DNA of 58,523 nucleotides, the filler included, from Stramenopiles sp. TOSAG23-6 (taxonomy: Eukaryota), in assembly GCA_900128565.1 (NCBI GenBank). It is 2 parts of 2 records of this genome, joined end to end, with 100 filler letters (N's around TTAATTAATTAA, not from the genome) between each part and the next. Parts side by side here need not be neighbours in the genome. Positions count along the whole stretch, not along the records: positions 1 to 29,221 come from LT635974.1; 1 more part is not named here. The stretch is one strand, 5' to 3'. The notes beneath the pieces are model-generated. The model searched no databases, was not told the origin of the DNA, and saw only the letters and a list, made by a program, of their open reading frames with translations. A program made the position numbers and the translations under genes. Positions within the stretch are counted from its first letter, which is position 1; every line of letters starts with the position of its first letter. Of the stretch, positions 8,063-58,523 are shown in pieces.

Positions 8063-11000
8063 TCACGCTGTAGATTTAGGTCTGTCCCATGTCATTTCTT
8101 TGGTTACCTTGTTATAGAATATAGTTTTCTGAGTAGCTTCATCAGTATAACTAACCCAATCTTCAGGTAAATCATTTAAATTACTTTCACTTGCATTACA
8201 GTGACCACTTTCACCTTCACAAATATCACTTGGTTGAATTTCCTCCGGATTCAATGAAATTTCAATACTGAGGGAGCCTGTTGCATCACCATCAACAAAT
8301 ATATTAGGCCCGTGTTTAGAATTCCGTGTTTTCATACCGCTTTTTGATCGTCCATGTTCCATTATAGCTTTTGCAATTTCCGTTCCTAGAACTTGGTGAA
8401 TATATCTTCTTAATGGTCTTGCGCCATACATCGGTTCATATGCTTGCTCTACAATAGTATCAATACCATTGTCCGATACAGTCAAATTAGCTCTGTTCCC
8501 TATATTAATATCGAATTGATTCACAAGTATTCGAGTGATCTCTGTTAATTGGGGCATCGATAAAGAAGCAAATATAATAATATCATCCAAACGATTCAAA
8601 AATTCAGGTCGAAAGTGTTGTTTGACTTCTTTCATCACAGACTTTTTAGCCATATTTAAACTTTGTTTGTTCTTTGAATCCGTGTACACATCTGCAAGAA
8701 ACTGACTGCCCAAATTAGATGTCATAATGATGTATGTATTGCTGAAATCTACAGTAACACCTTTTCCATCTGTTAAACGTCCATCATCGAGAACTTGAAG
8801 GAAGGAAGTCAACACAATTTGATGAGCTTTTTCAATTTCATCGAGAAGAACAACACAATATGGTTTTCTCCTTACAGCTTCGGTAAGTTGACCACCGCTA
8901 TCATGTCCGATATATCCCGGAGGACTTCCAATCATTCTTGCAACGGAATGTTTCTCCGAATATTCACTCATATCTAATCGAACAATTGCATTTTCATCAT
9001 CAAATAATTGTTCTGCTAATGCTTTTGCAAGTTCTGTTTTTCCCACACCCGTAGGACCGAGAAAAAGAAATGACCCAGATGGTTGATTTTCGGCACCAAT
9101 ACCAGCACGACTTCTTAATACTGCATTCGTCACAGCATCAATTGCGTCATTTTGACCAATGATTCTCTCATGTAACTTATTACCTAAACTAAGGATACGA
9201 CTCTTTTCGCCTTCACTAAGCTTTGACAATGGAATCCCTGTAGTTTGACTAACAACTTCTGCAATATGCTCAGGTGCAATTACATCAGTTAAAAGAACAG
9301 CGGCATCATGATGTTTTCGATACTCTTCTATTGTTTTTATTATTTCTGCCCGTCGTAATTCTAATTTTGGTTTCACTGTATGAAGTAACCGTGATACTTC
9401 GTCAACATCTGTATTTGCTTCATTTTCTAAAGCTGATAGATTACTATTAAGGTCGTCAATATCCTGCTGAACCTTGTGAAGAGAATCCATCCTCTCCTTT
9501 TCTTCGGCAAGTCTGCTTCTCATATCTTGCAACTCGTCTCTAGTAGCAGATAGCTCAATGTCAACAATTTCTAATCTCTGAACAATTGGTGATTCACCAT
9601 CCAAATTTTCATCTCCTCCTAATCCAAACCAGGATACAAATGTGGCAAATGTTGAACCATTTGCTGTACGTTCGATATCACGCTGCAAAGATCTTTGTTC
9701 TACAGCAAGTTGCATGTATTTTCTCTCTAGATCCTCCAACTGCTCCGGTTGACTATCTAATTGAACTCTTATTTTTGCACATGCTTCATCAATTAAATCA
9801 ATTGCTTTATCAGGATTAAATCGGTGAGATATGTATCTATCTGATAATCGAGCAGCAATTCGTAATGTCTCATCCAAGATACGGACCCCATGGTGTGCTT
9901 CATACCTTTCACGCAAACCTCGAAGGATAGCAATGGTGTTTTCAACATTCGGTTCTTCTATAAGAACTTTTTGAAATCGACGTTCAAATGCCTTGTCTTT
10001 TTCAATATATTTTCTATACTCATCAGTAGTTGTAGCACCAATCACACGGAGAGATCTTGCAAGTGCAGGCTTTAATAAATTTGCACCATCCATCGATGAA
10101 CCACCACCTGAACCAATCAAACTATGAATTTCATCAATAAATAAAATTACATGTGAAGATCTCTCAGCCTCTGCAATAACTGACTTTAATCTGGCTTCAA
10201 ATTGACCCCTCGCACTTGCACCAGCTATCAGCGCGGCCAAATCTAGCGAATATATGTGAACACCAAGTAAAGAATGTGGTATGTATTGTGAAAAATATTT
10301 AAAAAAAAATCCCGTTAGGTACGGAATTTCGTACGAAAAAAAAAAAAAAAAAAGATATGAAAACGTACACCATTCCAGAAACAATCCGCTGAGCTAATCC
10401 TTCAGCGACAGATGTCTTTCCTACTCCAGGGTCCCCAATAAAAACAGGATTATTCTTTTTTCGTCTGGATAAAATTTGTACTGCACGACGAATTTCCATG
10501 TATTGTGAAAAAATACTCAAAAACAATTGTTAGGTACAAAATTTCGTATGAAAAAAAGATGAAATAAATAATGAAAATGTACATGTCTCTCCCTATGACA
10601 GGATCTAACTCCCCAGCTTCAGCTTTTGCTACAAGATCTAATGCGTACGTTTCTAACGCAAAAAAATCTTCATCCGCAGTAGATCCACCACTTTTCTTAC
10701 TAGAACGATCACGACTATAACCTTTATTATTTCGATGTTTTTGATTTCGTTCATTTTTGGACGTATTCGTTTGACCTCGACTTTTTCGAACTTTGTTAAC
10801 TTGTTTAATGACAGAATTTGCCGTGAGAAGACCTGTTTTCTTTAGTAAAGCTGCGACATCTTTATCCTTTAAAACTGCAACAATAAGATTGTAATGTGTA
10901 TAATATATCAAAATAAAAAAAATGATTATTAAGGTACAAAAGATTACGTCACTGTAGTATTATTTTTAAAAAATATTCCGTATTGGTCAAGTCCAATATG

Positions 11001-11399
11001 AGTTTCATCAGTTTCTAATCGTTCTTTATTAGCCAGACGGAGTACGGCAGATAGTTCGTGTGTTTGACCAAGTTCAAGTGGTGCAGGCGACTGACGAGGT
11101 AATGCAGAAACTTTCCTCCCAAGTTCAACCAAAAAGTTTGAAATGGTTTTACGGACCTTCATTGCTGTTGGGTTTCCACTGATTGACTTTTTCAGGAGCC
11201 TTTGACCAAAAGATCCTTGATCTTCAAATAATGCTCTAGCTAAGTGCATCTGAGAACATGCAGGATTCTTACGTTTTCTAGCAGTTTCTTCTGCTTTCTG
11301 ATATACCTCTAAAGCTTTGTTTGTAAGCTCAAGTTGCCCATTGACAGAGGAATTCAGCGAAAACAGACAAAAAGTTAAAAGTATGCAACGTATAAACAT
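8063..11399 (-). CDS. clpB: ClpB/Hsp100 AAA+ chaperone with N-terminal signal peptide and C-terminal WW domain; 4 exons (11399-10984, 10888-10583, 10497-10369, 10280-8063)
   Basis: [64 protein letters not shown] motif [10 protein letters not shown]...[14 protein letters not shown]. Confidence 0.92.
10281..10368 (-). other. Non-canonical family intron (GT...AT, 88 nt)
   Basis: gga atg gt|GTACGTTTTC...CACAATACAT|a cca restores [15 protein letters not shown] (ClpB consensus GDVPESL). Confidence 0.9.
10498..10582 (-). other. Non-canonical family intron (GT...AT, 85 nt)
   Basis: gac at|GTACATTTTC...CACAATACAT|g gaa restores [12 protein letters not shown] (consensus DPVIGRDEEIRR). Confidence 0.92.
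10889..10983 (-). other. Divergent non-canonical family intron (AT...AA, 95 nt)
   Basis: gac ca|ATACGG...TTTTGTACCTTAAT...CACATTACAA|t ctt restores the Clp-N motif HIGLDHLIVAVL. Confidence 0.75.
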
Positions 11400-11585
11400 T
11401 TGCGTTCTTCAGTGGGCTTTGACGGTCCGTGTTTAGATATTTATCGGGAAACAGAGTTGTTCCTTTTCCTTATAATGGTTTGATGAAAAGAATGTGAAAA
11501 GTTTCTTTTTTATCGAATCTTTTTGTCGTGTCGTCAGCAGGCAGGATGTTCGGATTTGTCGGATATATTAATTTTCAAACATTGG

Positions 11586-11600
11586 AAACCCCCAACCCTA
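11586..11600 (-). promoter_or_regulatory. Degenerate telomere-like box upstream of clpB
   Basis: AAACCCCCAACCCTA on +, about 190 nt upstream of ATG 11399. Confidence 0.35.
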
Positions 11601-11739
11601 GTACATAATTTATATTTTCATCAATGTGATGTATTTCATTCTCTCGTATAACAACTAATTTATCTAATGCGATTTTATTTTAAAAAGAAAGCAAGAAATT
11701 TTAAAATAATATATATATGATGACGCGCTGCGATTCTAT

Positions 11740-14700
11740 CTACACAACAACATTTTCACCATCTTGCATATTTACAGAATTCTCTTCACTCCGTCGTCTA
11801 AAAGAGAGTTTTCTTAATTTTTCCTTTGAGCAACATTTCTTAATAGACGTTGAATGCATTGAAATCACAGCAATAATATGAAAAAGTATACATGTCACTG
11901 CAAGCAAGAGCATCGTCATTTCGCACCATTTCGGTATAGCATCTGTTTCTTTTTCACGAGGTACAAAAGAGAGTGCGAGTATTACATGTATTGTGAAGAA
12001 ATATTCGGGAAAAAATCGTTAGGCCTAATTTTCATAATAAAAAAAAACAAAAATTCATGATGAAAACGTACAATCATCTCTACTGATGTGCACCCGGAAA
12101 GGAAATTATCATGCCAACTTCCTAACGGTCGCCATAGAATGTAACAGAATAATTCAATGGCAAATAAAGCAATAAGAACAATTGCCTGAACTTTGCTATC
12201 ATCCTCATCCTTGAATTTTCCAATACAAATACCGCGAAATAATTGTAATGGGAGTAGAACAATAACCAAGAAAAATACAGCACCACGAGATCCTGACATA
12301 TCTTCAAATAATGGTCCCCATTTAGCGACATATCCCTTATTTCCATCCCCATCAGCATCTTTCCACTCTTTTTCGTCTTTATCCCATACTGCTCTTGCAC
12401 CCTGTTCGTTATAAACTTCTTTATAAATCTTATACGTAGCTATCATCATAAAACCGATTATATATACTACAATAAAACCAAAAACTGCAGCTACTATAAA
12501 AAACGAAACTTTACCATTGACCAAATTTGCCGTTGCTGCTTCTCCCAATCCTTGGAAAACAATCAATAGAACTAGAACTTCATACCTGGGAAATTTACTT
12601 TCTGTTATCCTTTCATTTACGATTTTTCCTGCAGACTTTCGTAAAAGTGTCTTACCATCAGGGCCAATTAATCTTTTCTCAGAATTCGGGAGGTAGATTG
12701 CAATGCGTTCACCAAGAGACACTCTTCGCAATGCCACCTTTTTATTCTCTTCATTTTTTCTAAAGCTTTCATCACATCGATGCTTACCAGATATATCCAT
12801 ACCTAATTCATACATTGAGCTTCTTTTTTTCCTGATTCCTGTCATTTCGATATCTACGTCCCCAGGTGTAACGCTTGTTAATGAAGGTGTAGTATCGTCC
12901 ATTTTTAATTGGACGGTACCAGTATCTTGCCCATCATTGCCAACACTTTGATGGTCTCTCATCCGAGTCAGTTTTCCACGTTGTTTGTTGCTTTGGCGAG
13001 GAGAAAGAAGTAAATCCATACTATTCTTAGGAGAAAGGAGTGAGTCCTTATTAGTAGCTTTAGCTCTAGCTACAGGCGATACAGTTCTAATCATGCTATT
13101 CTTCCGTAATGCAGCAATTGGTGACGAAAGATTTAATTCGTTAGACGAAATAACAATAGCATCATCAAACTCTTCTTCTTCCGGCTTCTTCTTTTCACAA
13201 CAAAATATTTCTCTATATTTAGGAACTCGTTTATCAAAGAAGCATCCAATCACAATGATGTGAATTACAGCTACAGCGATACATAAAAATACAGCCCATG
13301 TTACATTTGCAGAAAATACTTCCAAATGGAACTCTTGTAAAGCTCTCGCATAATTAACAGAACTGAGAACGACTGTTGTATCCACTTTATCTGCAGTCAG
13401 AATAGTATGTTCATTCTCATCTTCCGTTTTTGATACATCAGTATCTTTTTTTTTGAGTCGTCGTCTTCTTGATTGTAAAGAATAGAGTTCATTTTGTTTT
13501 ACTTTTGATTCATTCTTTGCTGCTTCTTGGGCCTCTTTCCATGTCAACATTGCTTTTTCATCATCACACAGCCATAAATCTCCAGTGTCTGTTTTGAATG
13601 ATACAGTACTACCAAGTATCATTAATATAAAAGCTATCAATAGTAATGATATGCCAAAAGCTACCTTTCGAAAACTTCGCCTTGGTTGAATCGTAAGTTC
13701 CTCCACGCCATCACCATCCTTTAATGCAACACTCTGTAAACGCTTAGTAAACCAATCCCTCTTTTTACGTCGTAATCCATCAACTACAAATAATATTCCT
13801 ACAGGTATAAAGAATAAGACAGAATAAATAAAGAACCAACTTTCAAGCTTAAACCAACACCAAATTGGACGGATGCCTCGCAAGTTAGCCCATCGAACTT
13901 GATCCGCAAACCCAGATAATGTTGGAGCCCAATGCATCTGAGATACATTTGACAATAGTGACAAAGTTTGAACGTTAAATATTAATAGCCAGACAGCATT
14001 TCCAGCCATGCCTGAACCACCACCTCCTGCAGCAGCATTACTTCCTCCAGACATAAAAGCAGTGGGAGCACTAGCTACTCCTGCTGCTGCACCGCCACTA
14101 GCACCTGCAATACTAGCAGCAACTGTGCCAACTACGACTGTTGCTGCTACGCAAGTCGTCGTTGTCTCCCCCAAAGCTTCTACAGTCGTAGGTTCCAATA
14201 CAGGTTCCGGTTCATCTTTATTCTTAATAGTATATTTTTGATTAAATAGTATAGGATCTAGCGCAGGCGTATTCTTGCTTTCATTGCATGTTTTCCCTGT
14301 CCATCCAATCTCGCAAGTACAGGAACCATCATTAGCAACGATACCTTTATTACTACAAGTTTCTTTGTTACTATATTGACAATTCAATCCAGCATATGTT
14401 GCTGCGCAATTCTGACACGAAGCACCAGCATATTTTGTTGTACATGTGCACGTTCCTAAATTATCCACATTACCACGATTATTACAAGTAATAGCGTCTG
14501 TAAATTGACAATATTCTCCTTTGCCAACAGCATTACATTTACAAGTACCTTTATCATTTTTAACTGTCACGACGCCATTACCATTGCATGTGCCCTTATT
14601 ACTGAATTGGCATTTTGTTCCAAAATATCCATTACCACAGGTAGAGCAAGAGTTGTTACCTTTCCAAGCATCTACACATTCACATGTAGCAACGTCAAGT

Positions 14701-17084
14701 GCATCAACTTTGACATCTCCTTGATCATTGCAAGTTTTAGAACGCGAGTATTGACAATTTTTACCAGATAAACCATTTGTACATGTAGAACAATTGGCGC
14801 TTCCTTTCCAGTCGTTATCGCATGTACATACTCCCTTTGCACATGTGCCATGTCCACTACAGTTATTGCCATTGCATGGATCTGGTGAAGCATTTTTACA
14901 TACTAATCCATTATTACTTGTCTTTCCAGAAGGACATGCCGAGCAACTGCCTTTTCCCACATCAGGTTGAACTTTACCAACGGTACAAGCTTGGCATCCT
15001 GAAGCAGGAACTGCCCCAGTATGATGCGTACCTGCATTACAAAAACAGTCAGTCAGAGCTGTAGAACCCGTTTGCGTTGTTGTCTTTCCTGTAGGGCATA
15101 ATAAACATTTTACAGATGAATTAGATACCTCTGTTTTGTATTTTGCTAATGCACACTTTTCGAAGTTTCCTGCATTATTTTTGAAATATCCCGGTGCTGC
15201 TAGACAATCAGTTGGGAGAACAGTTCCTTTTGCTTTTGTAGTAGAGTTTGCTGGACAAGTACTACACGCCAATTTGCTACCGCTAGTTGGTTGATATGAT
15301 CCTAGTGCACATATAGCGCAACCACCGTTTCTAGGACATGTATTCGTTGCACCATATCCTTGACCACATGAACCACAACCCACAACTATCCCATTATGGA
15401 GAAAATGTGAAGTGACGTTATCAACGTTTTTCGACACCAAATATTTCTTTGTATTGGTATTCAGAAATATTGCTTCATTCTTATAAATAGGAATCAACGT
15501 TTTATTTCCATCACAAGTAATTTTGAAACTTTGAGCGCTCGCAATTGTACAGATTTCATTGCCGAATGCATTGTACACTTTGACTCCAGCCTTAAATCCA
15601 TGAGATGTTGGAGTCGAACCACTGTCATGAGTAAATGATGATAATCCAGCAGGTTGATAGGTTGCACCTTGAATATAAACAGGTTCGCCAGAATAAATAC
15701 AATCTTTTGTATCATCTTGGGTCTTGCTGCCCGTTTGAGCAGTGCAATTTTTACATGAGACATTGTCACTGTTTCCTTTGCCGTCACATGTGTCTGATTT
15801 ATATTGCACTTTAGTGCAAGTCGTACATTTCAGTGCTATATATTATGGGAAAATATATCAAAGTAGAAATTCGTTAGGTGGAAATTTTTCTACGAGAAAA
15901 ATAAATTTGAAATTCATGATGAAAACGTATATACCTCTATTATTCACATAGAATCCTTGTTTAGCTTGAGCACAAGGTTGATGGTCTTGTGGCTCTCTTC
16001 TTTTGAAAATCATTGCACCAGATGGAATAGCAACTGCAGTACCTGTACCAAAGGTAAGCTGATTCGAGGATTTCCCAGTAATTCGAGGCAAATCGGAACC
16101 ATCGACCAAGTAAGGGATTTGCTTTAGGTGTATTACTTGCGCTACGTTAGTAACACCTGCAGGAAGGTTCACCCGCATTGACTTTGTACCTTTTGGATAA
16201 GCTTGATATGCAGTAAGACCTGTGCCCTTAATATCGACACATGGCTTTGTATTTGTTGCCACAGCATCTACAGCACAATTAGGCTGAGATTGACACTTTG
16301 CACAAGCACCAGCTCCATTAGAAGTATGATAACCTGCGTTGCACTCACAGTATGGTAAACCTCCACTAGTTATTGTCCATAGAGGGTGATCAATCCAATC
16401 ATCAACCTTCGTCGGAGTGTCCAAGCAACATCTACATCCCCAACCTGGAGTCGACTGAGAAACCATAGTCAAACCAGAAAAACTTCCGGAATATGTTTTA
16501 CAAGAATTATTTGTTTTCATATAGTCATAACACTTCTTTTTCACACAGTCCCAATTACAACTACCAGAAACTGCATAAGTACTTGAGCCGTAACCGTGAC
16601 TATACTCACCTCCCTTGACACCAGTCGTGGGATGCGTTTCACATTCTCTTCCATCGTTGGTCGCTGGTAATGTTTTACAAGCCCCATGGCCATTGCAAGG
16701 GTTTCCAGCACCTCCAGCGCAAGTGGCTTCACATTGAAATCCGGCATAACCAGTGTTGCACACACAACTACCACTAACTTCAGAGCCATGCCCATTACAT
16801 TTTGGTGGTCCTTGTTGCTGATCACACTTAGTGAAATCACTGGGGCAAGCACCAGCGCCATTATTATTTGGTTTAATACAATAATAACCAAAATTTTGAT
16901 CAGCGTTTTTCCGGACACAAAGTTTGGCATCTGAGGCACTTGAACCATTATTAAATCTCCCGGATATGCCGTTTTTGAGGGAGCCGTTACCACTGTACGA
17001 AGCGCTACATTTTTTTGAACATGCTGCAGCATCTACTCCTGAAAATAAACTTAAAAGTGTTATAGTAAGGAATAACTGAACCAT
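11740..17084 (-). CDS. Large surface protein: signal peptide, EGF-like and TNFR/ephrin-receptor-like Cys repeats, multi-pass TRP-like transmembrane region; 3 exons (17084-15931, 15837-12072, 11985-11740)
   Basis: MVQLFLTITLLSLFSGVDA signal peptide; CNGHG..C.C..GY.G..C repeats; multiple hydrophobic helices with KWGPLFEDM; last exon VILALSFVP...ENVVV* is open only after intron removal. Confidence 0.8.
11986..12071 (-). other. Non-canonical family intron (GT...AT, 86 nt)
   Basis: atg att|GTACGTTTTC...GGCCTAACG...CACAATACAT|gta ata gives the TM helix SVEMIVILALSFV. Confidence 0.85.
15838..15930 (-). other. Non-canonical family intron (AT...AT, 93 nt)
   Basis: ggt at|ATACGTTTTC...CCACCTAACG...CATAATATAT|a gca joins ORFs 15858-17108 and 11982-15809 (GFYVNNRGIALKCTTC). 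Confidence 0.8.
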
Positions 17085-17381
17085 GGCGTATTTGAATCCC
17101 GATTTCAAGAAGATTGCGTGTACATAAATACGTGTGTTCGTTCGTTCCTACGGATATAGGCTAGGAACAAAAAGCGAAGATTCAAAGATTCGATCTGATC
17201 CTTTTTTGATGGACACGTTGAACTCCTCGCTTATAAAAAAAATCAGATTTCGTGTTTTATTAGCCGGTGCAAATGACTCGCGGTGTTCTGCTGACTGTTT
17301 TTCTTTACTGTATATTTCAAGAACAGTATTCAGGGAATATTATTAAACAAGAAACTGAATCGACTGAATTGATTTAAAAGA

Positions 17382-18269
17382 ATGGATATGGTGAATGTAT
17401 TTTCCGCTTTGGATGTATCAAAGAAGAAAAAAAATAAAAAGAAAGCGAAAAAGTCCGTAAAGAAGAATAAGGTTGTTGAAGCCGCGAAGCTTGAAGAAAA
17501 CTCGATTACAGGTAGTCCTATTTTTGCCCCGTCTGCTCTTCCTGAGTTTGGTGCTGGAGGAGCATTGGCATGGGCAGATGAAGATAATTCCGAAGATGAG
17601 GATGGATTTAGTTTTGGTAGTAGTATGCCGCCAATGATGCCCGTTCTTCCACCGATAGCTGGTGCGGAACCTGCTGAGGAAGAAGATGAGGAAGAAGTAG
17701 AGAGCGAAGAGGAAGAAGAAGAAGTAGAGAGCGAAGAAGAAGAAGAAGAAGATGATACAGTGGAGAATACAGTCGGTATGGGAATTACCGCGCGCGCACC
17801 TACAGCGAAGAAAGTGATTGTTCGGCAGATATCTAAGAAGGCACAGAAGAAAGCATCTAACGCAGAGTTGGACGCAATTCTTGCTGAATTTGCAACACCA
17901 GCCGTACCAGAGGTCGAGTCAAAACCAACAAAAGAACAGGAAAACACAGAGGATAATCATGTAGATAATGACGACGAAGATCTTGCGTTACTTGGAATAG
18001 TTTTGGGGGGTGGTAAAAAGAAAACGAATAAGAAAAAGAAAAAGAACAAAAACAAGAAAAAGAACAAAACCAACCCTTCTACACAAGTTCCACTCAAGTC
18101 CAACCAAGCGCCAAATGATATCAAAGATGTTAAAACCTTTTTGGCAAATAAATTAAAGAAAAAGCCATCTAAATCATCTTTGAGGATGAAAGCAGCAGCT
18201 GAAAAGAAGAAGAAGAAAACTAAAGTCAAAGATAAAAGTCACTACAATCAAACACCTCAAGGTAGATAA
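17382..18269 (+). CDS. Low-complexity acidic/Lys-rich hypothetical protein
   Basis: 295-aa ATG ORF with poly-E and poly-K tracts and W-AD-E-D and ELDAILAEF motifs. Confidence 0.7.
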   Translation: MDMVNVFSALDVSKKKKNKKKAKKSVKKNKVVEAAKLEENSITGSPIFAPSALPEFGAGGALAWADEDNSEDEDGFSFGSSMPPMMPVLPPIAGAEPAEEEDEEEVESEEEEEEVESEEEEEEDDTVENTVGMGITARAPTAKKVIVRQISKKAQKKASNAELDAILAEFATPAVPEVESKPTKEQENTEDNHVDNDDEDLALLGIVLGGGKKKTNKKKKKNKNKKKNKTNPSTQVPLKSNQAPNDIKDVKTFLANKLKKKPSKSSLRMKAAAEKKKKKTKVKDKSHYNQTPQGR

Positions 18270-18430
18270 TGTTGTCAAGGGTTTTAAAGTCTTCATTGAA
18301 TGACAACACACAATAGTTGCTTTTCCTATAATTACTATTATTCACTTTATTTGGACTTATAATAATAAATTCAGAAATTAGGTTTATATCACAAACCTTT
18401 AAAGCCTTTAAAGCCTTTAAAGTGTAGCAT

Positions 18431-21400
18431 TTATGTTTTGACTTCATCGGGTTTTGCTAATTTGACTATTATATTTTCGTCTTGTTTTGAATTCTGTGTC
18501 ATGGAAATTGAGTTTTGAAGAATTACTTTTTTAACTCTTTTTGATTTACTTTTCCTTCTGACCACTCCGCGTTTTTTTCGACTTTTGTGTTTTTGCTGTT
18601 GACTTGAGGCATACATTTCTTCTAACAATGTCTTCAATTTACCTGGTTCAAATAAATCCTCCCCAGCCAAGTCAGAGTATAAATACCGAAGGCGTTCTCC
18701 TCTAAAGCCAAGTCTATGTGCAGCAATTTCAAACATTGATCCATAATCGGATGATCTTAATGAGATTGGCATTCTTGAAAGATATCCAAAACGAATGGAA
18801 TCATTAGGAAGAACCTTGCTGCCAGTATTAGTTGAGGAACGGCCACCAATAATTCTATTGCGTTTAGACCGGATTCTCCGTTTTGCCAAGTCTTGTAATT
18901 GGTACAAAGCCATTGACTCTTTCTTTGTATTGATATTATTGTAATTAAATTTTGCGCGACTAAACGGTCCGATGACGAGAGGTGGCTTTCTAGATTTTGG
19001 TCCTTTTAGTTTCTTTTGTTTCACACGAGGCAGACATTTTTCATTCTTTGAATTGTTACTAAGCTTTTCTAAATTATCCATTCCTTTTGTTTCTTTTGTT
19101 TCTTTTGATACATTTGGTACTTTTTGACACTTTAATTTGCGCTTTTGAGTAAGCTTTAACTTTGACTTACTTCGACGAGATTTTGTTATCCCAGCGAAAG
19201 AACTTCCAGTTAACTTATGTATTTGCTCTTGCTCAAAATGTCTTTTTCTATTCTTGCTATTACAGGATGTTGAATTTATATCAGGTGACATTACTAAATC
19301 TGGTAGATTCATTAAAAATCTCTCTAGACGAATATCGTTCATGGTAATCCTGCCCACTGTTTGATCATCAACATTGCCATTGTTGATACGTCGTTTCAAT
19401 GCACGCATTTGAGCTATTAATTCTAAATCAAAATTTGACGCACCACGGGCAAACCATTTCTCTTCGAGAAGGTTAAGCATTTGACGCGCTTCCTTGTAGC
19501 CTTGCTTTTCGCGCTCATTATCTCGTAAACGCCGTCTACCATATTTGTCAATATAATATTTCGATTTTTTCCGTACTCTCGCCTGTTTGGCCAATTTTCG
19601 TTTTCGTTTCCGAATCTTTTGGTGCGAGATTACTGCTTCGGTGTAATAGCCATACGCAACGTGTGCAGATATGCCAGCTTCTGATGCTGCATCCATAGCA
19701 ACTTCTGTTGAAAGTGCTACAACAGACGCAAGCTTTTCTTCATTTGTCTTCATTCCCATTCGGACTCGCATTGCAGCTTTTTCATATTTTTTTCTCTTCG
19801 CTGATAAAAGACGTTTGCGCTTCTCTTCATGCTTCTTCAATTCTGCAACTCTTGTGGTGCGTTTTCTCTCGATTTCGCGATCTTCAGACATGAGAAGAAT
19901 TTTAACTTGACCAACAACTGAAGCACATGTGACGTTTGGTATAAATATTGTCCTTTTCTCAAATGTGAGTATATTGAGTACGTATATCGAAACACCTCTA
20001 ATACCTTGATTTGATGTTTTGGGTGTATTGTAATTTTTTGGTGCATTAGTTTTTGAAATTTGAACCATCACTAAATTTTCATTCCTAGTGTGGGATATAT
20101 TTCCCATGCCATCTATACTTGGATATCGTAAAGCAAACCGACGTGAATCATCAGTTTGTATTGGGTAAAACACTCTATGAATATTCCCTATGTTAATGTA
20201 ATTAATATTACCAGTCATTGGGTCAATCCATTTCATACCATAATATTTATCTTTAATCATTTCATATATATCTTTTCCTGTTGGCCACGATAATGTTTCG
20301 CCGTATAAATGACGCAAAATATTACTAAATTGGGTCACGGTCAATTCACCGGTAAATAATACATCCTTACTAATAGTACCAGCCACCAGACACATGTTAC
20401 TAATGCCAACATTTGATTGTGCATATTTTTCTGCTTTAATCGTAAAGTTGGCTCCGTTTAAGATACCTTCAAAAAAAAATTGTTTTGTCATTTTCAAAGT
20501 ATCTTCTCTTTTAGAACATGCAAAAGGAAATGATTCAATAAGAGCTTTATACAACGCACATGCATCAAAATCAAGTTGGCCCATTCGAGGTTGCAAACGA
20601 ATGTTTGATCGGGCTACATCAACAACAGTTTCCTTCTTGTTTTTACTGTTTTTGTATTCTATATCAAACATTTTGGCATCTGAAATTGACTTTATTATTC
20701 CTGGAATATATTTCTCATCAGTGTCGATATCTTTTGTATTAATTACAAATAATACAGGATCACCAAGTCGAATCGTATCGACAGTTGAATTGTCAACTTT
20801 ATCTCCTTTAATAGTATTGTCGTCTTCTTCAGCAAAGTCAACCAACCACATTTTAGCAAATCCTCCAACAGAAACTCGAATATGAATTTCTCCACCATCT
20901 TCTCTATTTTTATCAGGACCTTTCGTTATTTTATTACTTAATAACAATACTCTCTCTTCAGTACAAGTTTCGTGTAATAGCAAAGACTTAACAAATAACG
21001 AACCAATTGTTGCACTTCCCAAAATATCATCGCCACCAAGTAAATCCCAATCATATATATCTATCTGAATTTCAGCTATTTTACAGGAATTCCAACTACT
21101 GAATCGAATTTTAAATTCCTTGGTTTTAGGAGGATCATTAGTCCAGTCAGGATTGAGGTTTTTTTTTTTTGTAGATGATTTGAATCTTTCGCCACCACAT
21201 AATATGCTTACATATGGATCACTACTTCTCCCATCTCCTCGAGTCAAATTTATTGCACGGAGTATTTCAATAGTTACTTCACCTGGTATATCACCATTAT
21301 CATCTCTGAGTAATGCAGCGTTTTTGGCTTGCTTTAACTCTTCAGGACTAAGTGTATAATTTTTGTACTTCTTTGCATTTGCTAATGCTTGTTTCTGTTT

Positions 21401-24130
21401 ATCAGCGTGTATTATCCATGACGTACCATTCTGAAAACCTTTCAGACTTACTTTGAGATACAAAACACCACCCGGTTTGTTTTTATCTTTACCTTTTGTA
21501 TGATTAGCTAGTACGAGTGTCCGATGTTCCGACAAACTTGGATTATTGTATAGTAATGTATTCACATTTAATGAACCAAGGGAACACGTACCCATCAAAT
21601 CATTTCTCCCAATCATATCATAGTCAATTACTTCAATTTTTATATCTGTCTTTGTGCAAACATACCAACTTGAATAATTAAAAATAAATGTTTCCGAATA
21701 AATTGGATTCAATTGTTTCTTCTTTGTTACAGTTTTGAATACCTGTGTTCCGCATGTGAGTTTTACAAAAGGATCCGAACTTTTCCGATCGGCACGTGGA
21801 AGGTTTTCTGCACGAATGACTTCAACTACTACTTGGCCGGATACGTCCTTTCCTTTAAGCCGCTGAGCTGCAGCCTTAGCGGTTGACATTTCAGATAGAC
21901 TGGAAAAACCACTTACATCTAATGAAGAATTTCTTTTTTTAATAATAGTTTTATCAAAACCATGAATTGCGAGACGAAGCTTTATTTCTCCACCACTAGA
22001 TTTATTGGAATCTTTTCCTTTTGTCAAACTATTATCTAATTCTATCGATCGCTCTGTGTAAATTTTAAGTGGTGTACTTTTTTCATTAAGCGGGTCTCCA
22101 CTTATCCAATTGCCGCTATCATCTACTGTGTAATTTACAATTCGCGGCTTTATGAACTCTTCACCAGTGGATGTTTTACACAGTAAATTCCGAATTATAG
22201 TGGATGCTAATAAATCGTTACTGCCAATTAAATCCCAATCCCAAATCTTGATTTGTATTTGCGCCGACTTGCAGGACGACCAGCAATCAAAATAAAATAC
22301 AAAGTTTTCATTGAAATCTGGATTTAATGTCGTTTTCTTGGTTGCAGTTTTGAATTTTTGTGCATGATCCCCTGCTATTGGGTTTCCAGTTTCATCAAGT
22401 AATATCAATTCTACATATGGGTCACTACTTATCGCATCACCCCGACAGAGATTCCTTGCGGAAACCACCCCAACTTCAACAATGCCTGTCCCGTCACCTT
22501 TACTTTCAAATGAAGAAATTTCTGAATTGCACACATCATCCGGATTTTGGTTCCTTTTAGTGGCAGCTTCTTCCTGTTTTTCTTTTCTTATTTGAAGCCT
22601 CGCTTCTTCTATTTCCATTTTAAGTTTATTTTCTTCTGTAGGAAAACCCTCGACAGTAACTGCAACAAATATTTCTCCACCAGATGACAAATCCTTGTCT
22701 TTTCCAGTCGATGCATTTGATAACTCAAATGACCGTTCTTCTCGTATTCCTTTTACGGGTTTCATCAAAGATCCAATAGTATCGTCTTTAATAGGAGAGC
22801 CATTCACTACACCAAAATTACTTATGCCACCAACGATTTCGCCAAGTATATCGTTACTTCCTATCAAATCCCTGTTGAGTGTAAATGATTAACATTTGCA
22901 TAATTCAAAATAAATAAATGTTATAATTCAAAAATAATTCAAATCTACACAAATGTGAAGAGATTACTTACCAGTCAAATATTTGAACAAATACTTTTGC
23001 ATCTAAAAGTTCACTCCAATTTGAAAACACAAATGTAAATAATTGATTTTCCCAAATTGGATCTAGAGTTTTTTTTAGAGTATTCGTTTTAAATGTTTGT
23101 GTAACTCCTGAAGTTTCGCATGTATAGTGAAAAAATGAACCAGAAGAAAAATTGTCAGGTACGAAATTTTCTATGAAAAAAAAACAAAATTTGAAATTAT
23201 GAATGATTAAAAAAAAATCAAGATTTAAAAGTTTTTTTTGTTAGGTACAAAATTTCGTATGAACATACACGTGAGTACACAAAATGGATCACTTGAATTT
23301 TTGTCTCCGCGAGGAAGATTTGATGCACGAATTACTTCTATCTTTACAATACCTGACTCATTCAATAATTTTCGTTGAGCCGCGAGTTGAAGTTCAGCCT
23401 TGCGTTGCTTTTCAGTCTTGATACTCGTTTTTAATTTTTGAGCAGAACATTTTGTTGTTGCGACAACTTCCATATTTATTTCGTTTGGGTTTGATGAATT
23501 TATATTTTTGCTTATTTCTATTTTACTCGTTTTTTCTATCTGCTGCATTTTAATAAAATCTGATTCATATGGAAAACCAGATGTTTTGATTATCACTGAT
23601 AAGTGACCTCCACTAGAAAGCCTCTTATCCTTACCTGTTGATTTATTTTCCAAGGCAAAACTTCTATGGTCAGCATTCGGAGTAATTGGCTTATAGTCTG
23701 TAGCACTTATCATATCTCTAATTGGAGAACCTACAGGACAATCACCGAGACAGTCAATCACACACGTGCTCAACAAATCATTGCTACCAATCATATCCCA
23801 ATCATACACCAAAACATCTATTGTAGCATTTTTACATTCTTCCCAAGTGTCAAAAAAAAATACTAAGTTTTCGTTCCACACAGGTTCACACGTCTTCTTT
23901 TTCGTTGAAGTTTTCAAACTTTTCTCTCCACAATTCAATACACAGAAAGGATCTGATGACTTACTATCACCGCGGGGGAGGTTTGTGGCTGAAACGATTT
24001 CAATTTCAACTTNACCTCTACAAAAGAGACTGCCCTGTTTATCTTGAGCTAAGGAACCTCTTTCGGAGATATTTTTTTGGTGCATCTCAGACATATTGGT
24101 CTTCTCTGTGACTAGTTCAGAATGTAGCAT
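18431..24130 (-). CDS. Multi-C2-domain protein (five C2 repeats) with basic C-terminal tail; 3 exons (24130-23269, 23119-22972, 22871-18431)
   Basis: Repeated V.IEI.RA.NL.R.D..SSDP...K..LNP.W....DWD.IG.ND.LG motifs. Confidence 0.85.
22872..22971 (-). other. Canonical GT-AG spliceosomal intron (100 nt), unrelated to the family
   Basis: gac tg|GTAAGT...CTCAACAG|g gat restores DWDLIGSND. Confidence 0.9.
23120..23268 (-). other. Non-canonical family intron with duplicated core (GT...AT, 149 nt)
   Basis: acg t|GTATGTTCATACGAAATTTTGTACCTAAC...TTCATAGAAAATTTCGTACCTGAC...CACTATACAT|gc gaa restores SSDPFCVLTCETSGVTQTFKT. Confidence 0.85.
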
Positions 24131-24283
24131 GGCAAATGATCATGCCTCAAAACATATTGTTCTGTCATGTTCTATCTAAACCATTGTTTGACTTTTTACA
24201 ATGTTTTGAATCTTTCTTGAAATCTTTCTGACCAGGCCGCACAGGGACAGTTTCAAAAGACTTACGTTATAACTTATCTAGCC

Positions 24284-24298
24284 TAGGGTTAGGGTTAG
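24284..24298 (+). promoter_or_regulatory. Telomere-like box upstream of the aspartyl protease gene
   Basis: TAGGGTTAGGGTTAG about 190 nt upstream of ATG 24484. Confidence 0.5.
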
Positions 24299-24483
24299 AA
24301 AATGTCAGTAGTCAGTCAGTCGCAAAAAAAAAAAAAAAAAAAAATAATATGACATTTTCATAGAATGACATTAGAATCCTTACCTACGTTTGCTTGAGCT
24401 ATTAGTGCCCTTCGGAAAGAAGAAGTGCTTCCATTGTTTCAAAAGTGTATTACGTTTACTCTGGAAAAGGCTATTTATTTCAG

Positions 24484-26167
24484 ATGCTACAAGCACTATC
24501 GTTGATCGCGTGGTCACTTTTCTTTTGGTTTCCTTGTTATTCTAGTTTGCGACTCCCTCTCATTCATCAACCTAGAACCAGGAGAAACGTCACTTCTCTT
24601 TCACTAGGTCAAAAAGAACCTCTTCACGATGCATATCGCAGTGCTGGAGAATTTTATCTTAATATCACCATTGGGGGACAAACTGCGACACTTTTGGTAG
24701 ACACAGGCTCTTCAGACCTTGGAGTAGTTTCTACTTTACTGCCATTTGATGATATTCCTAAAAAGACAGTACCCCCATACAACCCATCAAAATCGAGGAG
24801 AATGGACTGCGAGTGGTGTCACGAGCATCGTCATCATGGATCTTCTAATAGGTGCACACATGTCAAAGGACAAAAGACCGAGAAGCAATGTACGTATCAT
24901 CAAAGCTATATTGATGGAAGTGGCTTTTCTGCCGCAGTGTACAAAGATTATTTTTCTTTTGGGTCAAATGCCCCAAGTACCTTAAGTGTTATTGGAGCAT
25001 ATTATAAGTCGAAAAATATGGATGATTCAATTACAATGGATGGAATCATTGGCATGGCAGGTCCAGGATTAACTGCAAGTGGAGCTAATTCAACTGCATT
25101 TGATGATTTGGTTGCTTCTGGTGAAGTTGAGGATGTATTTGCAATTTGTCTTGAAAATCCGACACTGAAGCGACCAAAAACTAAAGGTCAGTTATATCTT
25201 GGTTTAGATTCTGATAATACAATAACAAAACTAAGAAATAGAAAACATGTCAATGAAGTGGACAAGATTGCAGGCATTCCACTACATCAACATTTCAATG
25301 ACACAGGAACTATTTGGACCCCGCGTGTTTTGGATAGCGACTATGTACGTTTTCATTTCAATTTCGAATTTATTTTTTTTTTGGTTTTTCGTACGAAATT
25401 TTGTACCTAACAAATTTTTTAAGATTTTTTTTGAAATATTTTTTCATAATCCATTACGCTATTGGAATTCGTGATATTCTGATAAATGGAATTTCAATTC
25501 ATGTTAGTGTGAAAATTTTAAATAATGGCGGTTCGATAGTGGACACGGGTACATCAATGGTTTGGTTACCAAAGACTGCATGGTTATCCACGAAGCGTAT
25601 CTTAAAAAAATACTGCAAGACTGAAGAAACTTGTTTACCGGGAATTTGTGTATGTTTTATATGAATTTCTAATTTATTTTTTTTTCATACGAAATTTCGT
25701 ACCTAACGATTTTTGTTTTGAAATATTTTTTCACAATACGTGATTGCGAGTTACTTTCACCCTTGTCTTATAATAAATCTATTTTGTACAATAATTGTGC
25801 TACATTAACTGAAAAGGAAATTGAAAAATTTCCATTGTTCGAGTTTGAACTTGTTGGAGGTGGCCGGATACCATATACCCCACAAAAATATCTCCGCAGT
25901 GGAACGCATACGTTTTCAAAAATTGAATTTCGATTTTGTTTTCATAGATAATTTTGTACCTAACGAATTTCGAATTTCAAAAAAATATTTTTTCACAATA
26001 TACAATTTTGTGAAGGAAATGGTCCAGTGTCCTTCGCGATGGGAGGTAACGATGATGATACAAGCGGTATGATTTTGGGGGAAAGTTTTATGTTTGGAAA
26101 TATTGTTATACATGAACGACGCAATCCGCAACGAATTGGCTTTCACCCCATTAAAAATTGTCCTTAA
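24484..26167 (+). CDS. Secreted pepsin-family (A1) aspartyl protease; 4 exons (24484-25344, 25455-25649, 25742-25907, 26004-26167)
   Basis: Signal peptide; both catalytic motifs (LLVDTGSS, IVDTGTS); DGIIGM; C-terminal ILGESFM...RIGF...C*. Confidence 0.9.
25345..25454 (+). other. Non-canonical family intron (GT...AT, 110 nt)
   Basis: gac tat|GTACGTTTTC...CATAATCCAT|tac gct restores DYYAIGIRDILING. Confidence 0.9.
25650..25741 (+). other. Non-canonical family intron (GT...GT, 92 nt)
   Basis: att tgt|GTATGTTTT...TACGAAATTTCGTACCTAAC...CACAATACGT|gat tgc joins ORFs 25401 and 25718 in frame. Confidence 0.8.
25908..26003 (+). other. Non-canonical family intron (AT...AC, 96 nt)
   Basis: acg c|ATACGTTTTC...TTGTACCTAAC...CACAATATAC|aa ttt tgt opens the terminal protease exon. 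Confidence 0.85.
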
Positions 26168-26269
26168 AAAATTGCGAAAAAAATAAAAGGAACAAACCTG
26201 TTTTCCATTAAATTAAAATTTCAATTGATTTTGCATTTTGATGTGCACACGAGGCTCCGCTCCTCCGTT

Positions 26270-26293
26270 GTTAGGTACGAATTTTCGTACGAA
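26270..26293 (-). repeat. Solo intergenic copy of the intron-family core
   Basis: TTCGTACGAAAATTCGTACCTAAC on -, with no recognisable family 5' or 3' end. Confidence 0.65.
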
Positions 26294-29161: not shown

Positions 29162-29221
29162 ATATATTTTGGAAAAATATTTCAAAAAAAAATCGTTAGG
29201 TACAAAATTTCGTACGAAAAA
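29162..29221 (-). other. 3' half of family intron (...AATATAT), truncated by assembly gap
   Basis: TTTTCGTACGAAATTTTGTACCTAACGA...TGAAATATTTTTCCAAAATATAT|aat att. Confidence 0.8.
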
Positions 29222-29321
29222 NNNNNNNNNNNNNNNNNNNNNNNNNNNNNNNNNNNNNNNNNNNNTTAATTAATTAANNNNNNNNNNNNNNNNNNNNNNN
29301 NNNNNNNNNNNNNNNNNNNNN
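29222..29321. other. Artificial contig linker (N44-TTAATTAATTAA-N44)
   Basis: Symmetric N runs around an all-frame stop oligo; the flanking genes are unrelated. Confidence 0.9.
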
Positions 29322-29375
29322 AGGTACAAAATTTCGTACGAAAAAAAATCGAATTTGAAAAAAAATAAAACGTAC
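29322..29375 (-). other. 5' half of family intron (GTACGT...), truncated by assembly gap
   Basis: gac t|GTACGTTTT...TTTTCGTACGAAATTTTGTACCT; interrupts the codon expected to be the conserved helicase Trp (D-W). Confidence 0.8.
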
Positions 29376-34136: not shown

Positions 34137-34258
34137 GGGATATTACCGTACAAATTCGAAATTAATTACGTATGAAATTTGCTATGAAATTTGCTATGAA
34201 ATTACGTATGAAATTTGCTAAAGGTTCAATTTCGAATTTGCCACATGGTAAATAACCC
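34137..34258. repeat. Inverted repeat enclosing four 12-bp tandem units in the selenoprotein 3' UTR
   Basis: CAAATTCGAAATT (34151-34163) / AATTTCGAATTTG (34228-34240) are perfect reverse complements; TATGAAATT(TGC/ACG) x4 inside. Confidence 0.75.
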
Positions 34259-42019: not shown

Positions 42020-42162
42020 ACAGATGATGTTAAAAGAACCCTCTATTTTAAAAAATATTGTTGCACGATTACTTTTTTATTTTAGATATAAATAAGCTTT
42101 TTATAATATACGAGAAACTTTATATGTGTATTTTAAATCAATTCAATCAGCACTAACACTTT

Positions 42163-58459: not shown

Positions 58460-58523
58460 GTATGTTTTATTTTTTTTCAAATTCGTTTTTTTTTCGTACG
58501 AAATTTTGTACCTAACGATTTTT
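58460..58523 (+). other. 5' part of family intron, truncated by the window end
   Basis: cgc ac|GTATGTTTT...TTCGTACGAAATTTTGTACCTAACGA; interrupts the expected R-T-G-F motif. Confidence 0.85.

What the first reader, a model, noticed from the sequence alone, without database searches (positions are those of the whole stretch)
10281..26003. The 3' splice dinucleotide looks like a 2-bp target-site duplication
Seen: last two exon nt versus last two intron nt in the 13 complete copies are AT/AT six times, then GT/GT, GT/AT twice, TT/AT, CA/AA, GC/AC and AC/AT. The final base matches in 12 of 13, including all three rare ends (GT/GT at 25650, C/C at 25908, A/A at 10889). Every mismatch is either at a synonymous third codon position (acG, acG, gaC) or has A at intron position -2. 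Inference: a DNA element RTAY...ATAY duplicated 2 bp on insertion, and the downstream copy became the acceptor, so the acceptor is set by position rather than by sequence. An alternative is that splicing needs the intron end to match the exon end. Protein conservation (Val in GMVP, His in DHL, Ile in the TM helix) favours the upstream copy being exonic; a 1-nt register ambiguity remains. Established: introner elements in Micromonas and Aureococcus derive splice sites from target duplications, but those give canonical ends.
Basis: partly seen in the sequence, partly recalled or inferred. Interest (0 to 1): 0.8.

Follow-up and report, generated by a model that had tools for sequence, protein, structure and literature searches.

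The report
Intron family with non-AG ends
A marine protist genome carries many copies of one short intron that is cut out at an unusual ...AT end instead of the near-universal ...AG, and the few bases shared between exon end and intron end may be a scar of how the intron was inserted, though this window alone cannot prove it.

Summary
All 13 complete copies and their dinucleotides reproduce exactly: AT/AT x6, GT/GT, GT/AT x2, TT/AT, CA/AA, GC/AC, AC/AT. Removal at xx|GTAYGT...ATAC-AT| restores the reading frame in 13 of 13. One junction is confirmed by an RNA contig and six by colinear orthologues.

These are U2-like spliceosomal introns: GTAYGT donor, TACCTAAC branch motif, U-tract and a conserved 3' block. 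They belong to one family spread across the genome of a MAST-3-like stramenopile. None of the 13 ends in AG.

The 2-bp target-site-duplication reading is only partly supported. Locus-specific identity is significant at the last base (12 of 13, P=0.013). It is not significant at -2 (8 of 13, P=0.31), where the intron simply has a near-fixed A. Adding intron +1 against exon-2 +1 strengthens the repeat (P=0.0007 on 14 copies). The signal rests on about four atypical copies and vanishes at -1 without two of them.

A family consensus without any duplication, or pairing between the donor region and the intron's 3' end, is not excluded.

I rate this a new variant of a known kind: transposon-like introns with non-canonical ends. 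I found no description of it in seven literature searches.

The parts
754..847 (+). intron copy (94 nt) in an LRR-protein gene; exon end AT, intron end AT
   Evidence: an AG 2 nt downstream is not frame-compatible
2044..2154 (+). intron copy (111 nt); AT/AT
10281..10368 (-). intron copy (88 nt) in ClpB; GT/AT; splits the Val codon of GMVP
   Evidence: orthologue P0002 is colinear; no AG within reach
10498..10582 (-). intron copy (85 nt) in ClpB; AT/AT; 5-nt direct repeat across the junction
10889..10983 (-). diverged intron copy (95 nt) in ClpB; starts AT, ends AA; exon end CA; splits the His codon of DHL
   Evidence: nhmmer E=5e-4
11986..12071 (-). intron copy (86 nt) in an EGF-repeat membrane-protein gene; TT/AT; the only junction seen in RNA
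   Evidence: contig of run X1 joins 11982 to 12069, skipping 86 nt, with 4 nt ambiguous
15838..15930 (-). intron copy (93 nt), same gene; starts AT, ends AT; exon end AT
23120..23268 (-). 149-nt intron with the internal block present twice, in a C2-domain gene; GT/AT
25345..25454 (+). intron copy (110 nt) in an aspartyl-protease gene; AT/AT
   Evidence: P0121 is colinear
25650..25741 (+). intron copy (92 nt), same gene; GT/GT
25908..26003 (+). intron copy (96 nt), same gene; starts AT, ends AC; exon end GC
   Evidence: 27 residues on each side of the comparison, no gap
35854..35955 (+). intron copy (102 nt) in a HOOK-like gene; AT/AT; an internal TTTTAG is not frame-compatible
57587..57686 (+). 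intron copy (100 nt) in a P5A-type ATPase gene; AC/AT, the only last-base mismatch
58460..58523 (+). 5' part of a further copy, cut by the window end; exon end AC
29322..29375 (-). 5' half of a copy that ends at the scaffold gap; exon end CT; lies in a DEAD-helicase gene
29162..29221 (-). 3' half of a copy that begins at the scaffold gap; intron end AT; probably a different locus from the 5' half
   Evidence: (frames do not join)
26268..26293 (-). 26-nt fragment resembling the internal block, intergenic and antisense to both neighbouring genes
   Evidence: (E=0.0028)

Best explanation
The window comes from a compact, AT-rich marine eukaryote. Its nearest database proteins carry the EukProt label GSMAST32, which I read as a MAST-3 stramenopile; that reading of the label is mine.

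Its genes are interrupted by one family of 85-149-nt spliceosomal-type introns. Each copy has a yeast-like donor GTAYGT (ATAC in 3 of 13). It also has a conserved internal block ending in the branch-like motif TACCTAAC, a U-rich tract and a conserved 3' block ...CACAATAC. Two more bases follow that block, usually AT.

Shown:
- The introns are removed exactly at xx|GTAYGT...ATAC-NN|.
- They do not use AG.
- The acceptor is at the same alignment column in every copy.
- The family occurs in many unrelated genes.

Inferred:
- The spliceosome of this lineage accepts Y-A-U (and A-C, A-A, G-U) at a position set by the 3' block rather than by an AG.
- The exon-end/intron-end likeness is mostly a family-wide consensus (AT|GT...AT|).
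- On top of that consensus lies a short locus-specific direct repeat of 1-3 nt straddling the junction (exon -2, -1 and intron +1 against intron -2, -1 and exon-2 +1).
- That repeat is most simply a remnant of the insertion event: a small target duplication, or microhomology at a repaired break. Splicing at the downstream copy then restores the original coding sequence.

I give about 0.8 to the first part (a non-AG, position-defined, genome-wide family). I give about 0.4 to the insertion-scar part. The single confidence figure of 0.5 is for the whole statement taken together.
For: Frames join in 13 of 13 copies.

RNA. A contig from a polyA metatranscriptome skips 86 nt at 11982|12069. It is compatible with the GT..AT register and incompatible with an NN..AC register.

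Orthologues. P0002 is colinear across the three ClpB junctions and P0121 across the three protease junctions. This excludes the in-frame alternative AGs at 10582, 25650 and 25908.

Acceptor choice. None of the 13 copies ends in AG. Three have no AG from the branch motif to 15 nt into exon 2. The distance from the branch motif to the 3' end is 32-49 nt, so the cut is fixed relative to the 3' block and not to the branch motif.

Genome-wide spread. A profile of intron read-through peptides found 25 proteins. Of these, 20 are GSMAST32 gene models carrying unrelated Pfam domains, such as kinesin motor, DEAD-box helicase, ABC transporter and a TCP-1/cpn60-type chaperonin domain. A second profile found 8 more proteins. 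Together, 37 core-containing segments occur in 32 of the 33 proteins.

Locus-specific repeat. Identity at -1 is 13 of 14, P=0.011. For -2,-1 it is 22 of 28, P=0.003. For -2..+1 it is 30 of 42, P=0.0007. The three A-starting introns end in C, T and A, each matching exon -1 (C, T, A). Two of the three also match exon-2 +1. No copy mismatches at both -2 and -1.

Exon-end bias. The exon end is AT in 6 of 15 window junctions against a background of 0.091 (P=0.0014). T is at -1 in 11 of 15 (P=0.0012).
Against: The locus-specific signal rests on few copies. Without +25908 and -10983 the -1 signal is gone, and -2..+1 gives P=0.09. The pattern was also noticed post hoc.

Position -2 alone is not significant (P=0.28-0.31). 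Five of the six non-A exon -2 bases face an intron A.

Peptide back-inference (my reading). In 14 pairs where both -2 bases can be read, 12 agree (11 A/A, 1 G/G) and 2 disagree (G/A, A/G). In 4 pairs where both -1 bases can be read, 3 are T/T. One (P0129) has exon T against intron A or G, though that 5' end is atypical and my parse is uncertain.

Transposon hallmarks are missing. There is no transposase among the 32 ORFs scanned. The terminal inverted repeat is only 4 nt. No complete intergenic or antisense copy exists; all 16 genic copies are in sense orientation.

The copies are old, with pairwise identity of 47-82%. A neutral duplication would therefore have decayed, and conservation in blocks points to selection for splicing signals.

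Only one junction was seen in RNA. An intron-less DNA allele present in that RNA library cannot be formally excluded.
Confidence: 0.5

Rival explanations
1. Consensus only, with no duplication. AT at the exon end would be part of the donor-site consensus or of an insertion preference. Examples are pairing with this organism's U1, or RNA-mediated spread by reverse splicing into sites that resemble spliced junctions. ...ACAT would simply be the acceptor signal carried by the intron. The few rare-end matches would be chance.
For: Most matches are across-family: AT/AT in 7 of 14 copies, and T/T in 11 of the 13 last-base matches.

Position -2 shows no locus-specific signal.

The -1 signal disappears without two copies.

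All 16 genic copies are in sense orientation. There is no complete intergenic copy, no transposase and no long inverted repeat. These are the signatures that Gozashti et al. 2022 (PMC9860276, passages read) associate with RNA-based spread, and the paper states that such patterns are ambiguous.

In read-through peptides the exon -1 base is T in 10 of 10 cases of one frame class. The exon end is AT in 5 of 6 internal cases of another class (my reading).
Against: Nominal P values are 0.011 (-1), 0.003 (-2,-1) and 0.0007 (-2..+1) on 14 copies.

Both non-T intron ends in the window (C and A) face the same base in the exon.

The first intron base (A against G) tends to equal the first base of exon 2, in 8 of 14 copies including 2 of the 3 A-starting copies.
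Confidence: 0.3
2. RNA pairing rather than identity. The last bases of the exon plus the donor (AU|GUAU) would pair with the intron's 3' end (AUAC-AU). This would bring the two splice sites together, as proposed for Amoebophrya and euglenid unconventional introns. Because AT is its own complement, pairing and identity look the same in most copies.
For: A 6-bp helix (exon -2,-1 and intron +1..+4 against intron -1..-6) is formed in 69 of 84 cells. Shuffles give a mean of 65.99, P=0.032.

GT/AT and GT/GT ends fit as G-U wobbles.

Intron +1 A goes with T at -3 in 2 of the 3 A-starting copies. G goes with C in 10 of 11 G-starting copies and with T (a wobble) in the other.
Against: The two exon bases against the last two intron bases pair in 23 of 28 cells, P=0.16, which is weaker than identity (P=0.003).

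CA/AA pairs at neither position.

RNAalifold on 12 of the 13 copies (the double copy was left out) predicts 0 conserved pairs.

Position +4 pairs in only 6 of 14 copies.
Confidence: 0.1
3. Minor-spliceosome-like acceptor tolerance. The set of termini seen here is GT-AT, AT-AC, AT-AT and AT-AA. This is the set that U12-dependent splicing is reported to tolerate. The introns might therefore be handled by a transformed minor-type machinery, with the last base free. Its likeness to the exon would then be incidental.
For: Sheth et al. 2006 (PMC1557818, passages and Table 2 read) list AT-AA, AT-AT and GT-AT among non-canonical U12-type introns. They report that AT-AN and GT-AT can be spliced by that machinery.

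The window has 9 GT-AT, 1 GT-GT, 1 AT-AC, 1 AT-AT and 1 AT-AA.
Against: The donor is GTAYGT and not RTATCCTT. In the alignment the fifth base is G in 12 of 13 copies.

The branch-like motif lies 32-49 nt from the 3' end. That is further than the short spacing I recall for U12-type introns.

No snRNA gene is in the window, so the machinery could not be examined.
Confidence: 0.1

Closest known systems
[quoted passage not shown] 2C legend of Gozashti et al. 2022, PMC9860276, read)
   Same: It is one sequence family of short introns in many unrelated genes. The donor is carried by the element. The acceptor is possibly supplied by the duplicated target, and splicing restores the original message length.
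   Different: Those families use canonical GY-AG ends and 3-9 bp duplications, and some have clear inverted repeats. Here the acceptor is AT, AC, AA or GT. The repeat is 1-3 nt and statistically fragile. The copies are only 47-82% alike.
Non-canonical introner elements of Amoebophrya (Farhat et al. 2021, PMC7789003, passages read)
   Same: It is a marine protist with repeated introns lacking GT-AG ends, and with short direct repeats (3-5 nt there) overlapping the exon/intron boundaries.
   Different: Amoebophrya elements have 8-20-nt inverted repeats forming hairpins, no common terminal dinucleotides, and U1 was not detected. Here there is no conserved helix. The donor and branch motif are strongly conserved and yeast-like, and the 3' block is fixed.
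Non-canonical introns of the tunicate Fritillaria borealis (review PMC11282704, passages read; Soo et al. 2026, PMC13326754, abstract read)
   Same: A U2-type system handles introns that mostly end in AC or AT. Those introns sit at species-specific positions and are thought to derive from transposons. The machinery adapted at the 3' side through divergent U2AF paralogues.
   Different: The Fritillaria donors are also non-canonical (AG-AC, AG-AT) and highly diverse. Here the donor is canonical-looking and the whole intron is one conserved family. The U2AF genes of this organism were not available.
U12-type introns with non-canonical termini (Sheth et al. 2006, PMC1557818, read)
   Same: The same repertoire of terminal pairs appears: GT-AT, AT-AC, AT-AT, AT-AA.
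   Different: The donor and branch consensus and the branch-to-acceptor spacing do not fit.
Yeast-type U2 introns (GTATGT donor, TACTAAC branch site; recalled, from no call)
   Same: The donor hexamer is identical in the GTATGT copies, and the branch motif differs by one inserted C.
   Different: Yeast introns end in YAG. These end in YAU at a position fixed by a conserved upstream block.

Membership tests
Introner elements (transposon-derived intron families) | Many introns of one sequence family in unrelated genes | tested here: met
   The window has 13 complete and 3 partial copies in 9-10 genes. A further 37 read-through segments occur in 32 proteins with unrelated Pfam domains.
Introner elements (transposon-derived intron families) | Target-site duplication with at least one locus-specific matching position | tested here: inconclusive
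   The -1 position gives P=0.011 and -2..+1 gives P=0.0007 on 14 copies. The signal is lost without two copies.
Introner elements (transposon-derived intron families) | Terminal inverted repeats (6 nt or more in Gozashti et al. 2022) | tested here: not met
   Only GTAT/ATAC (4 nt) pairs. It extends to 6 nt only through the palindromic AT. Position +4 pairs in 6 of 14 copies and +5, +6 do not pair.
Introner elements (transposon-derived intron families) | Copies outside genes or an autonomous element with the same ends | tested here: inconclusive
   Only a 26-nt intergenic antisense fragment was found. No transposase domain was found in 32 ORFs. No whole genome is held.
Major (U2-type) spliceosomal introns | GT (or GC) donor with extended consensus | tested here: met
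   GTAYGT-like donor in 10 of 13 copies and ATAC in 3 of 13.
Major (U2-type) spliceosomal introns | Branch-site motif followed by a pyrimidine tract | tested here: met
   A CTAAC-type motif (TACCTAAC and variants) is present in 13 of 13 copies, with T-rich sequence downstream. Branch usage itself was not tested.
Major (U2-type) spliceosomal introns | YAG acceptor | tested here: not met
   None of 13 copies ends in AG. The alternatives are excluded by frame, by orthologues or by RNA.
Minor (U12-type) introns | RTATCCTT donor | tested here: not met
   Bases +5 and +6 are G, T and not C, C.
Minor (U12-type) introns | Branch site close to the acceptor | tested here: not met
   The distance is 32-49 nt. 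The expected short distance is recalled and comes from no call.
Amoebophrya- or euglenid-type unconventional introns | Inverted repeats or a helix joining the intron ends | tested here: not met
   RNAalifold finds 0 pairs on 12 copies. A 4-6-bp terminal pairing is possible.
Ciliate-type internal eliminated sequences / Tc1-mariner insertions (TA...TA) | TA at both ends with one TA kept after removal | tested here: not met
   Keeping one TA would break the frame at the ClpB junctions (sequence, frames). Removal is also seen in RNA.

The most novel reading that the evidence does not exclude
In this MAST-3-like lineage most or all introns would descend from a single mobile element. That element carries its own donor and branch site and duplicates 2-3 target bases on insertion. 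The spliceosome would have shifted from reading AG to cutting at a fixed place after a conserved CACAAUAC block. Whatever base pair the duplication left there then serves as acceptor. This would be a living example of the old idea that the symmetry between exon end and intron end (AG|GT...AG| elsewhere, AT|GT...AT| here) is a scar of insertion and not a demand of the splicing machinery.
Probability: 0.25. Interest if true: 0.85.

Novelty: new variant of a known kind. Interest (0 to 1): 0.68.

Why it matters
Almost all eukaryotic introns end in AG. Genomes where another ending is the rule are very few (Fritillaria, Amoebophrya, euglenids and diplonemids). Each has taught something about how flexible the spliceosome is.

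Here the donor and branch signals stay textbook-like and only the acceptor has changed. That isolates the question of how a 3' splice site can be chosen without AG.

The case also offers a test of whether the likeness of exon end and intron end comes from insertion or from the machinery.

There is a practical point too. The public gene models nearest to this window read straight into these introns (P0001; 20 GSMAST32 models). Protein sets for this group of abundant ocean protists are therefore probably corrupted at every intron.

Tried and rejected
Data sources that gave nothing or little:
- Whole genome: none is held.
- Scans for the internal block. Viral contigs gave 0 loci. Metagenome contigs gave 4 loci, of which only L003 holds a real copy. 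Genome contigs gave 1 locus, in a Bacteroidales MAG, which I take as chance.
- Rfam and tRNA scans of the window found nothing.

Read laying:
- All listed joints other than 11982|12069 link different intron copies, or have short sides (21-37 nt). I read them as cross-mapping of the repeat.
- Parts without cover say nothing.

Models rejected:
- TA-bounded excision or a TA duplication: it would break the frame.
- The NN-GTAYG...ATAC (AT-AC-like) register: rejected by the RNA joint and by the conserved Val and His.
- Canonical AG acceptors.
- A conserved hairpin.

Ideas not borne out:
- I suspected the A-starting copies form a subfamily. Overall pairwise identity does not set them apart: 73% to each other and 73-75% to 25650.
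- Back-inferring end nucleotides from read-through peptides gave many copies but few informative pairs. The commonest last codon (His) does not tell T from C, and models that start at the ATG made by AT|G are biased towards AT.

Other:
- Papers on kinetoplastid single-cell genomes proved irrelevant.
- The frame change in the CobW gene (44729-46151) has no intron copy. I take it for a 1-nt indel near an A-run.

Full report
**What is there.** The window is AT-rich (32-42% G+C) and densely packed with long ORFs on both strands. They encode ordinary eukaryotic proteins:
- ClpB/Hsp104 with a C-terminal WW domain
- an EGF/ephrin-receptor-like membrane protein
- C2-domain proteins
- a pepsin-type protease
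- PP2C, Rab, a DnaJ-TPR protein, CobW, Kelch-MORN and ankyrin proteins
- a P5A-type ATPase

The ORFs are interrupted by a repeated insert of 85-149 nt. A profile built from 13 copies finds those 13 and three partial copies. Two of the partial copies abut the scaffold gap at 29222-29321 and one is cut by the window end. The profile also finds one 26-nt intergenic fragment. All 16 genic copies lie in the sense orientation of the gene they interrupt.

**Are they introns, and where are the ends?**
- Each copy starts with GTAYGT (ATAC in three copies).
- Each has a conserved internal block ending in TACCTAAC, a T-rich tract and a conserved 3' block ...CACAATAC followed by two bases.
- The closest relative's ClpB (P0002, 69% identical) runs without a gap through all three ClpB junctions. 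It conserves the residues made by the junction codons at two of them (10368 and 10983); at the third the alignment is colinear but the junction residue differs.
- The relative's protease (P0121) is colinear across all three protease junctions, with equal residue counts.
- One junction is seen in RNA. A 564-nt contig from a polyA seawater metatranscriptome (run X1) covers 11799-11982 and 12069-12448 and skips 86 nt, with 4 ambiguous bases. This fits the GT...AT register and four neighbouring registers. It excludes the register in which the two variable bases would belong to the intron's 5' end.

**The acceptor is not AG.** None of the 13 copies ends in AG.
- At 754 and 15930 an AG lies 2 nt further on but is out of frame.
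- At 25345 and 35854 an AG lies inside the intron at an ordinary distance from the branch-like motif but is out of frame.
- The in-frame AGs at 10582, 25650 and 25908 are excluded by the colinear orthologues.
- At 57587, 12071 and 10368 there is no AG at all from the branch-like motif to 15 nt into exon 2.
- The distance from the branch-like motif to the cut is 32-49 nt, while the cut is always at the same column after the 3' block.

No conserved RNA helix is predicted (12 of 13 copies given, 0 pairs).

**Whose genome, and how widespread?**
- The best protein match to the ClpB exon is EukProt GSMAST32.ASY1.ANO1.1583.1 (P0001). It maps onto the window and is evidently the same gene.
- Its model runs into all three introns and skips part of an exon.
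- I read the label as a MAST-3 stramenopile single-cell assembly. That reading is mine.
- A profile of intron read-through peptides recovered 25 proteins. Twenty are GSMAST32 models of unrelated genes. A second profile, run against representative proteins, gave 8 more.
- Together, 37 segments with the translated internal block occur in 32 of these 33 proteins. They match the window only through the intron.
- The family is therefore genome-wide, and the public gene models do not recognise it.
- In the RNA libraries the intron bins collect hundreds to thousands of summed contig depth against single digits for most exon bins. This fits many copies but is not a copy number.

**The target-duplication idea.**
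- Shuffling 3' ends among copies gives P=0.0126 for the last base (12 of 13), P=0.31 for -2 (8 of 13) and P=0.07 for the dinucleotide (7 of 13).
- With the L003 copy added (14 copies), -2 and -1 together give 22 of 28, P=0.0032.
- The comparison can be extended across the junction, setting intron +1 against exon-2 +1. That position matches in 8 of 14, P=0.11 alone. The three positions -2..+1 give 30 of 42, P=0.0007.
- The repeat, if real, is thus a 1-3-nt unit straddling the donor site, not a clean exon-side dinucleotide.
- It depends on few copies. Without +25908 the -1 P is 0.076, and without -10983 it is 0.15. Without both, nothing is left at -1 and -2..+1 gives 0.09.
- Intron -2 is A in 12 of 13 window copies. 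By my back-reading of the peptides it is A in 21 of 25 further copies. Exon -2 varies (A 7, G 4, T 1, C 1). So -2 looks like part of the intron's own signal.
- In the peptide-derived pairs, -2 agrees in 12 of 14 (11 A/A, 1 G/G) and disagrees in 2. Position -1 is T/T in 3 of 4, with one uncertain mismatch (P0129).
- These peptide data add little. The commonest final codon does not tell T from C, and six models start at the ATG that AT|G creates.

**Alternatives.**
- Because AT is self-complementary, identity and base-pairing between the donor region and the intron's 3' end are confounded. A 6-bp helix is formed in 69 of 84 cells (P=0.032). The two exon bases against the last two intron bases pair in 23 of 28 (P=0.16), which is weaker than identity.
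- The exon end is strongly non-random whatever the cause: AT in 6 of 15 against a background of 0.091, and T at -1 in 11 of 15. A donor consensus that extends into the exon, or an insertion preference, would produce most of the pattern without any duplication. Gozashti et al. 2022 make this caveat for AGgy...ag families (PMC9860276, Methods passage).
- Classical transposon hallmarks are missing. There is no transposase in the window, inverted termini of only 4 nt, and no full intergenic or antisense copy.
- The copies are 47-82% alike and conserved in blocks, so this is not a recent burst.
- The set of termini (GT-AT, AT-AC, AT-AT, AT-AA) is the one reported as tolerated by the minor spliceosome (PMC1557818). 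Donor, branch motif and spacing do not fit that class.

**Comparison with what is known.**
- Transposon-like introns that carry the donor and borrow the acceptor from a duplication are described, but with canonical ends (PMC9860276).
- Amoebophrya has repeated non-canonical introns with 3-5-nt direct repeats over the boundaries, but with hairpins and no common ends (PMC7789003).
- Fritillaria borealis has mostly AG-AC and AG-AT introns and divergent U2AF paralogues that read non-canonical 3' ends (PMC11282704 passages; PMC13326754 abstract).
- The present family combines a canonical-looking donor and branch site with a Y-A-U acceptor fixed by a conserved block. I did not find that combination described.
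- Searches found nothing on introns of MAST-3. The main text of the paper on MAST-3 single-cell assemblies holds 'intron' twice and 'splice' never (PMC5778133, find). Supplements were closed.

**Verdict.** The non-AG, position-defined acceptor and the exonic upstream copy are well supported. A short insertion-derived direct repeat is plausible (about 0.4) but not shown. A strict 2-bp duplication is not favoured, because -2 behaves as a fixed intron base.

Noticed in passing
window 29222-29321: The scaffold gap (44 N, a 12-letter stop-codon linker, 44 N) sits between two half-copies of the intron. The frames on the two sides do not join. The DEAD-helicase domain that breaks off at 29376 does not continue on the other side. 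The join therefore probably links two different loci whose contigs both ended in the repeat.
   Followed up: partly
window 8066-11399 (-), protein P0001: The public gene model for this ClpB reads into all three introns and drops part of an exon. Twenty other models with the same label contain translated intron sequence. The annotation of that assembly is probably wrong at every intron of this family.
   Followed up: partly
window 8066-11399 (-): The ClpB/Hsp104 homologue starts with a hydrophobic, signal-peptide-like N-terminus and ends in a WW domain (PF00397, E=3.5e-7). The relative P0002 shares both. This is an unusual architecture for a ClpB.
   Followed up: no
window 26268-26293 (-) and 34153-34240 (-): Intergenic DNA holds a 26-nt piece like the intron's internal block. 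In a second spacer there are short tandem units (AAATTTCATA-type) that resemble the intron interior. These may be decayed copies, or the intron may share motifs with spacers.
   Followed up: partly
window 23120-23268 (-): This intron carries the internal block twice (TACCTAAC and TACCTGAC versions) but only one donor and one 3' block. That points to an internal duplication or a nested, degraded copy.
   Followed up: no
window 44729-46151 (-): The CobW N-terminal and C-terminal domains lie in different frames that overlap at 45072-45145 near an A-run, and no intron copy is present. It is probably a 1-nt indel, whether an assembly error or real.
   Followed up: partly
window 42001-44000: Base skew is very strong (AT skew -0.59, GC skew -0.33) over an ORF of about 795 codons with no Pfam match, which suggests low-complexity or repetitive coding sequence.
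   Followed up: no
window 1513-1559 (+): The LRR-protein ORF ends at about 1559, while the next long ORF opens with an ATG at about 1518 in another frame. This is either overlapping genes or a frameshift.
   Followed up: no
L003 (sense strand, about 120 nt downstream of its intron copy): A canonical-looking donor (AAG|GTAAGT) follows the family intron in this metagenome contig. Relatives may therefore also hold ordinary introns.
   Followed up: no
proteins P0133, P0129, P0126: Read-through peptides imply donor variants (GC-like in P0133, possibly GG in P0129, unclear in P0126) and one intron ending in CAA or CAG (P0129). These are inferred from amino acids only.
   Followed up: no
window 55900-55925 (+): A short CCCTAACCCTAA-like stretch lies inside the ankyrin-gene region. 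It resembles a telomere repeat and may be chance.
   Followed up: no
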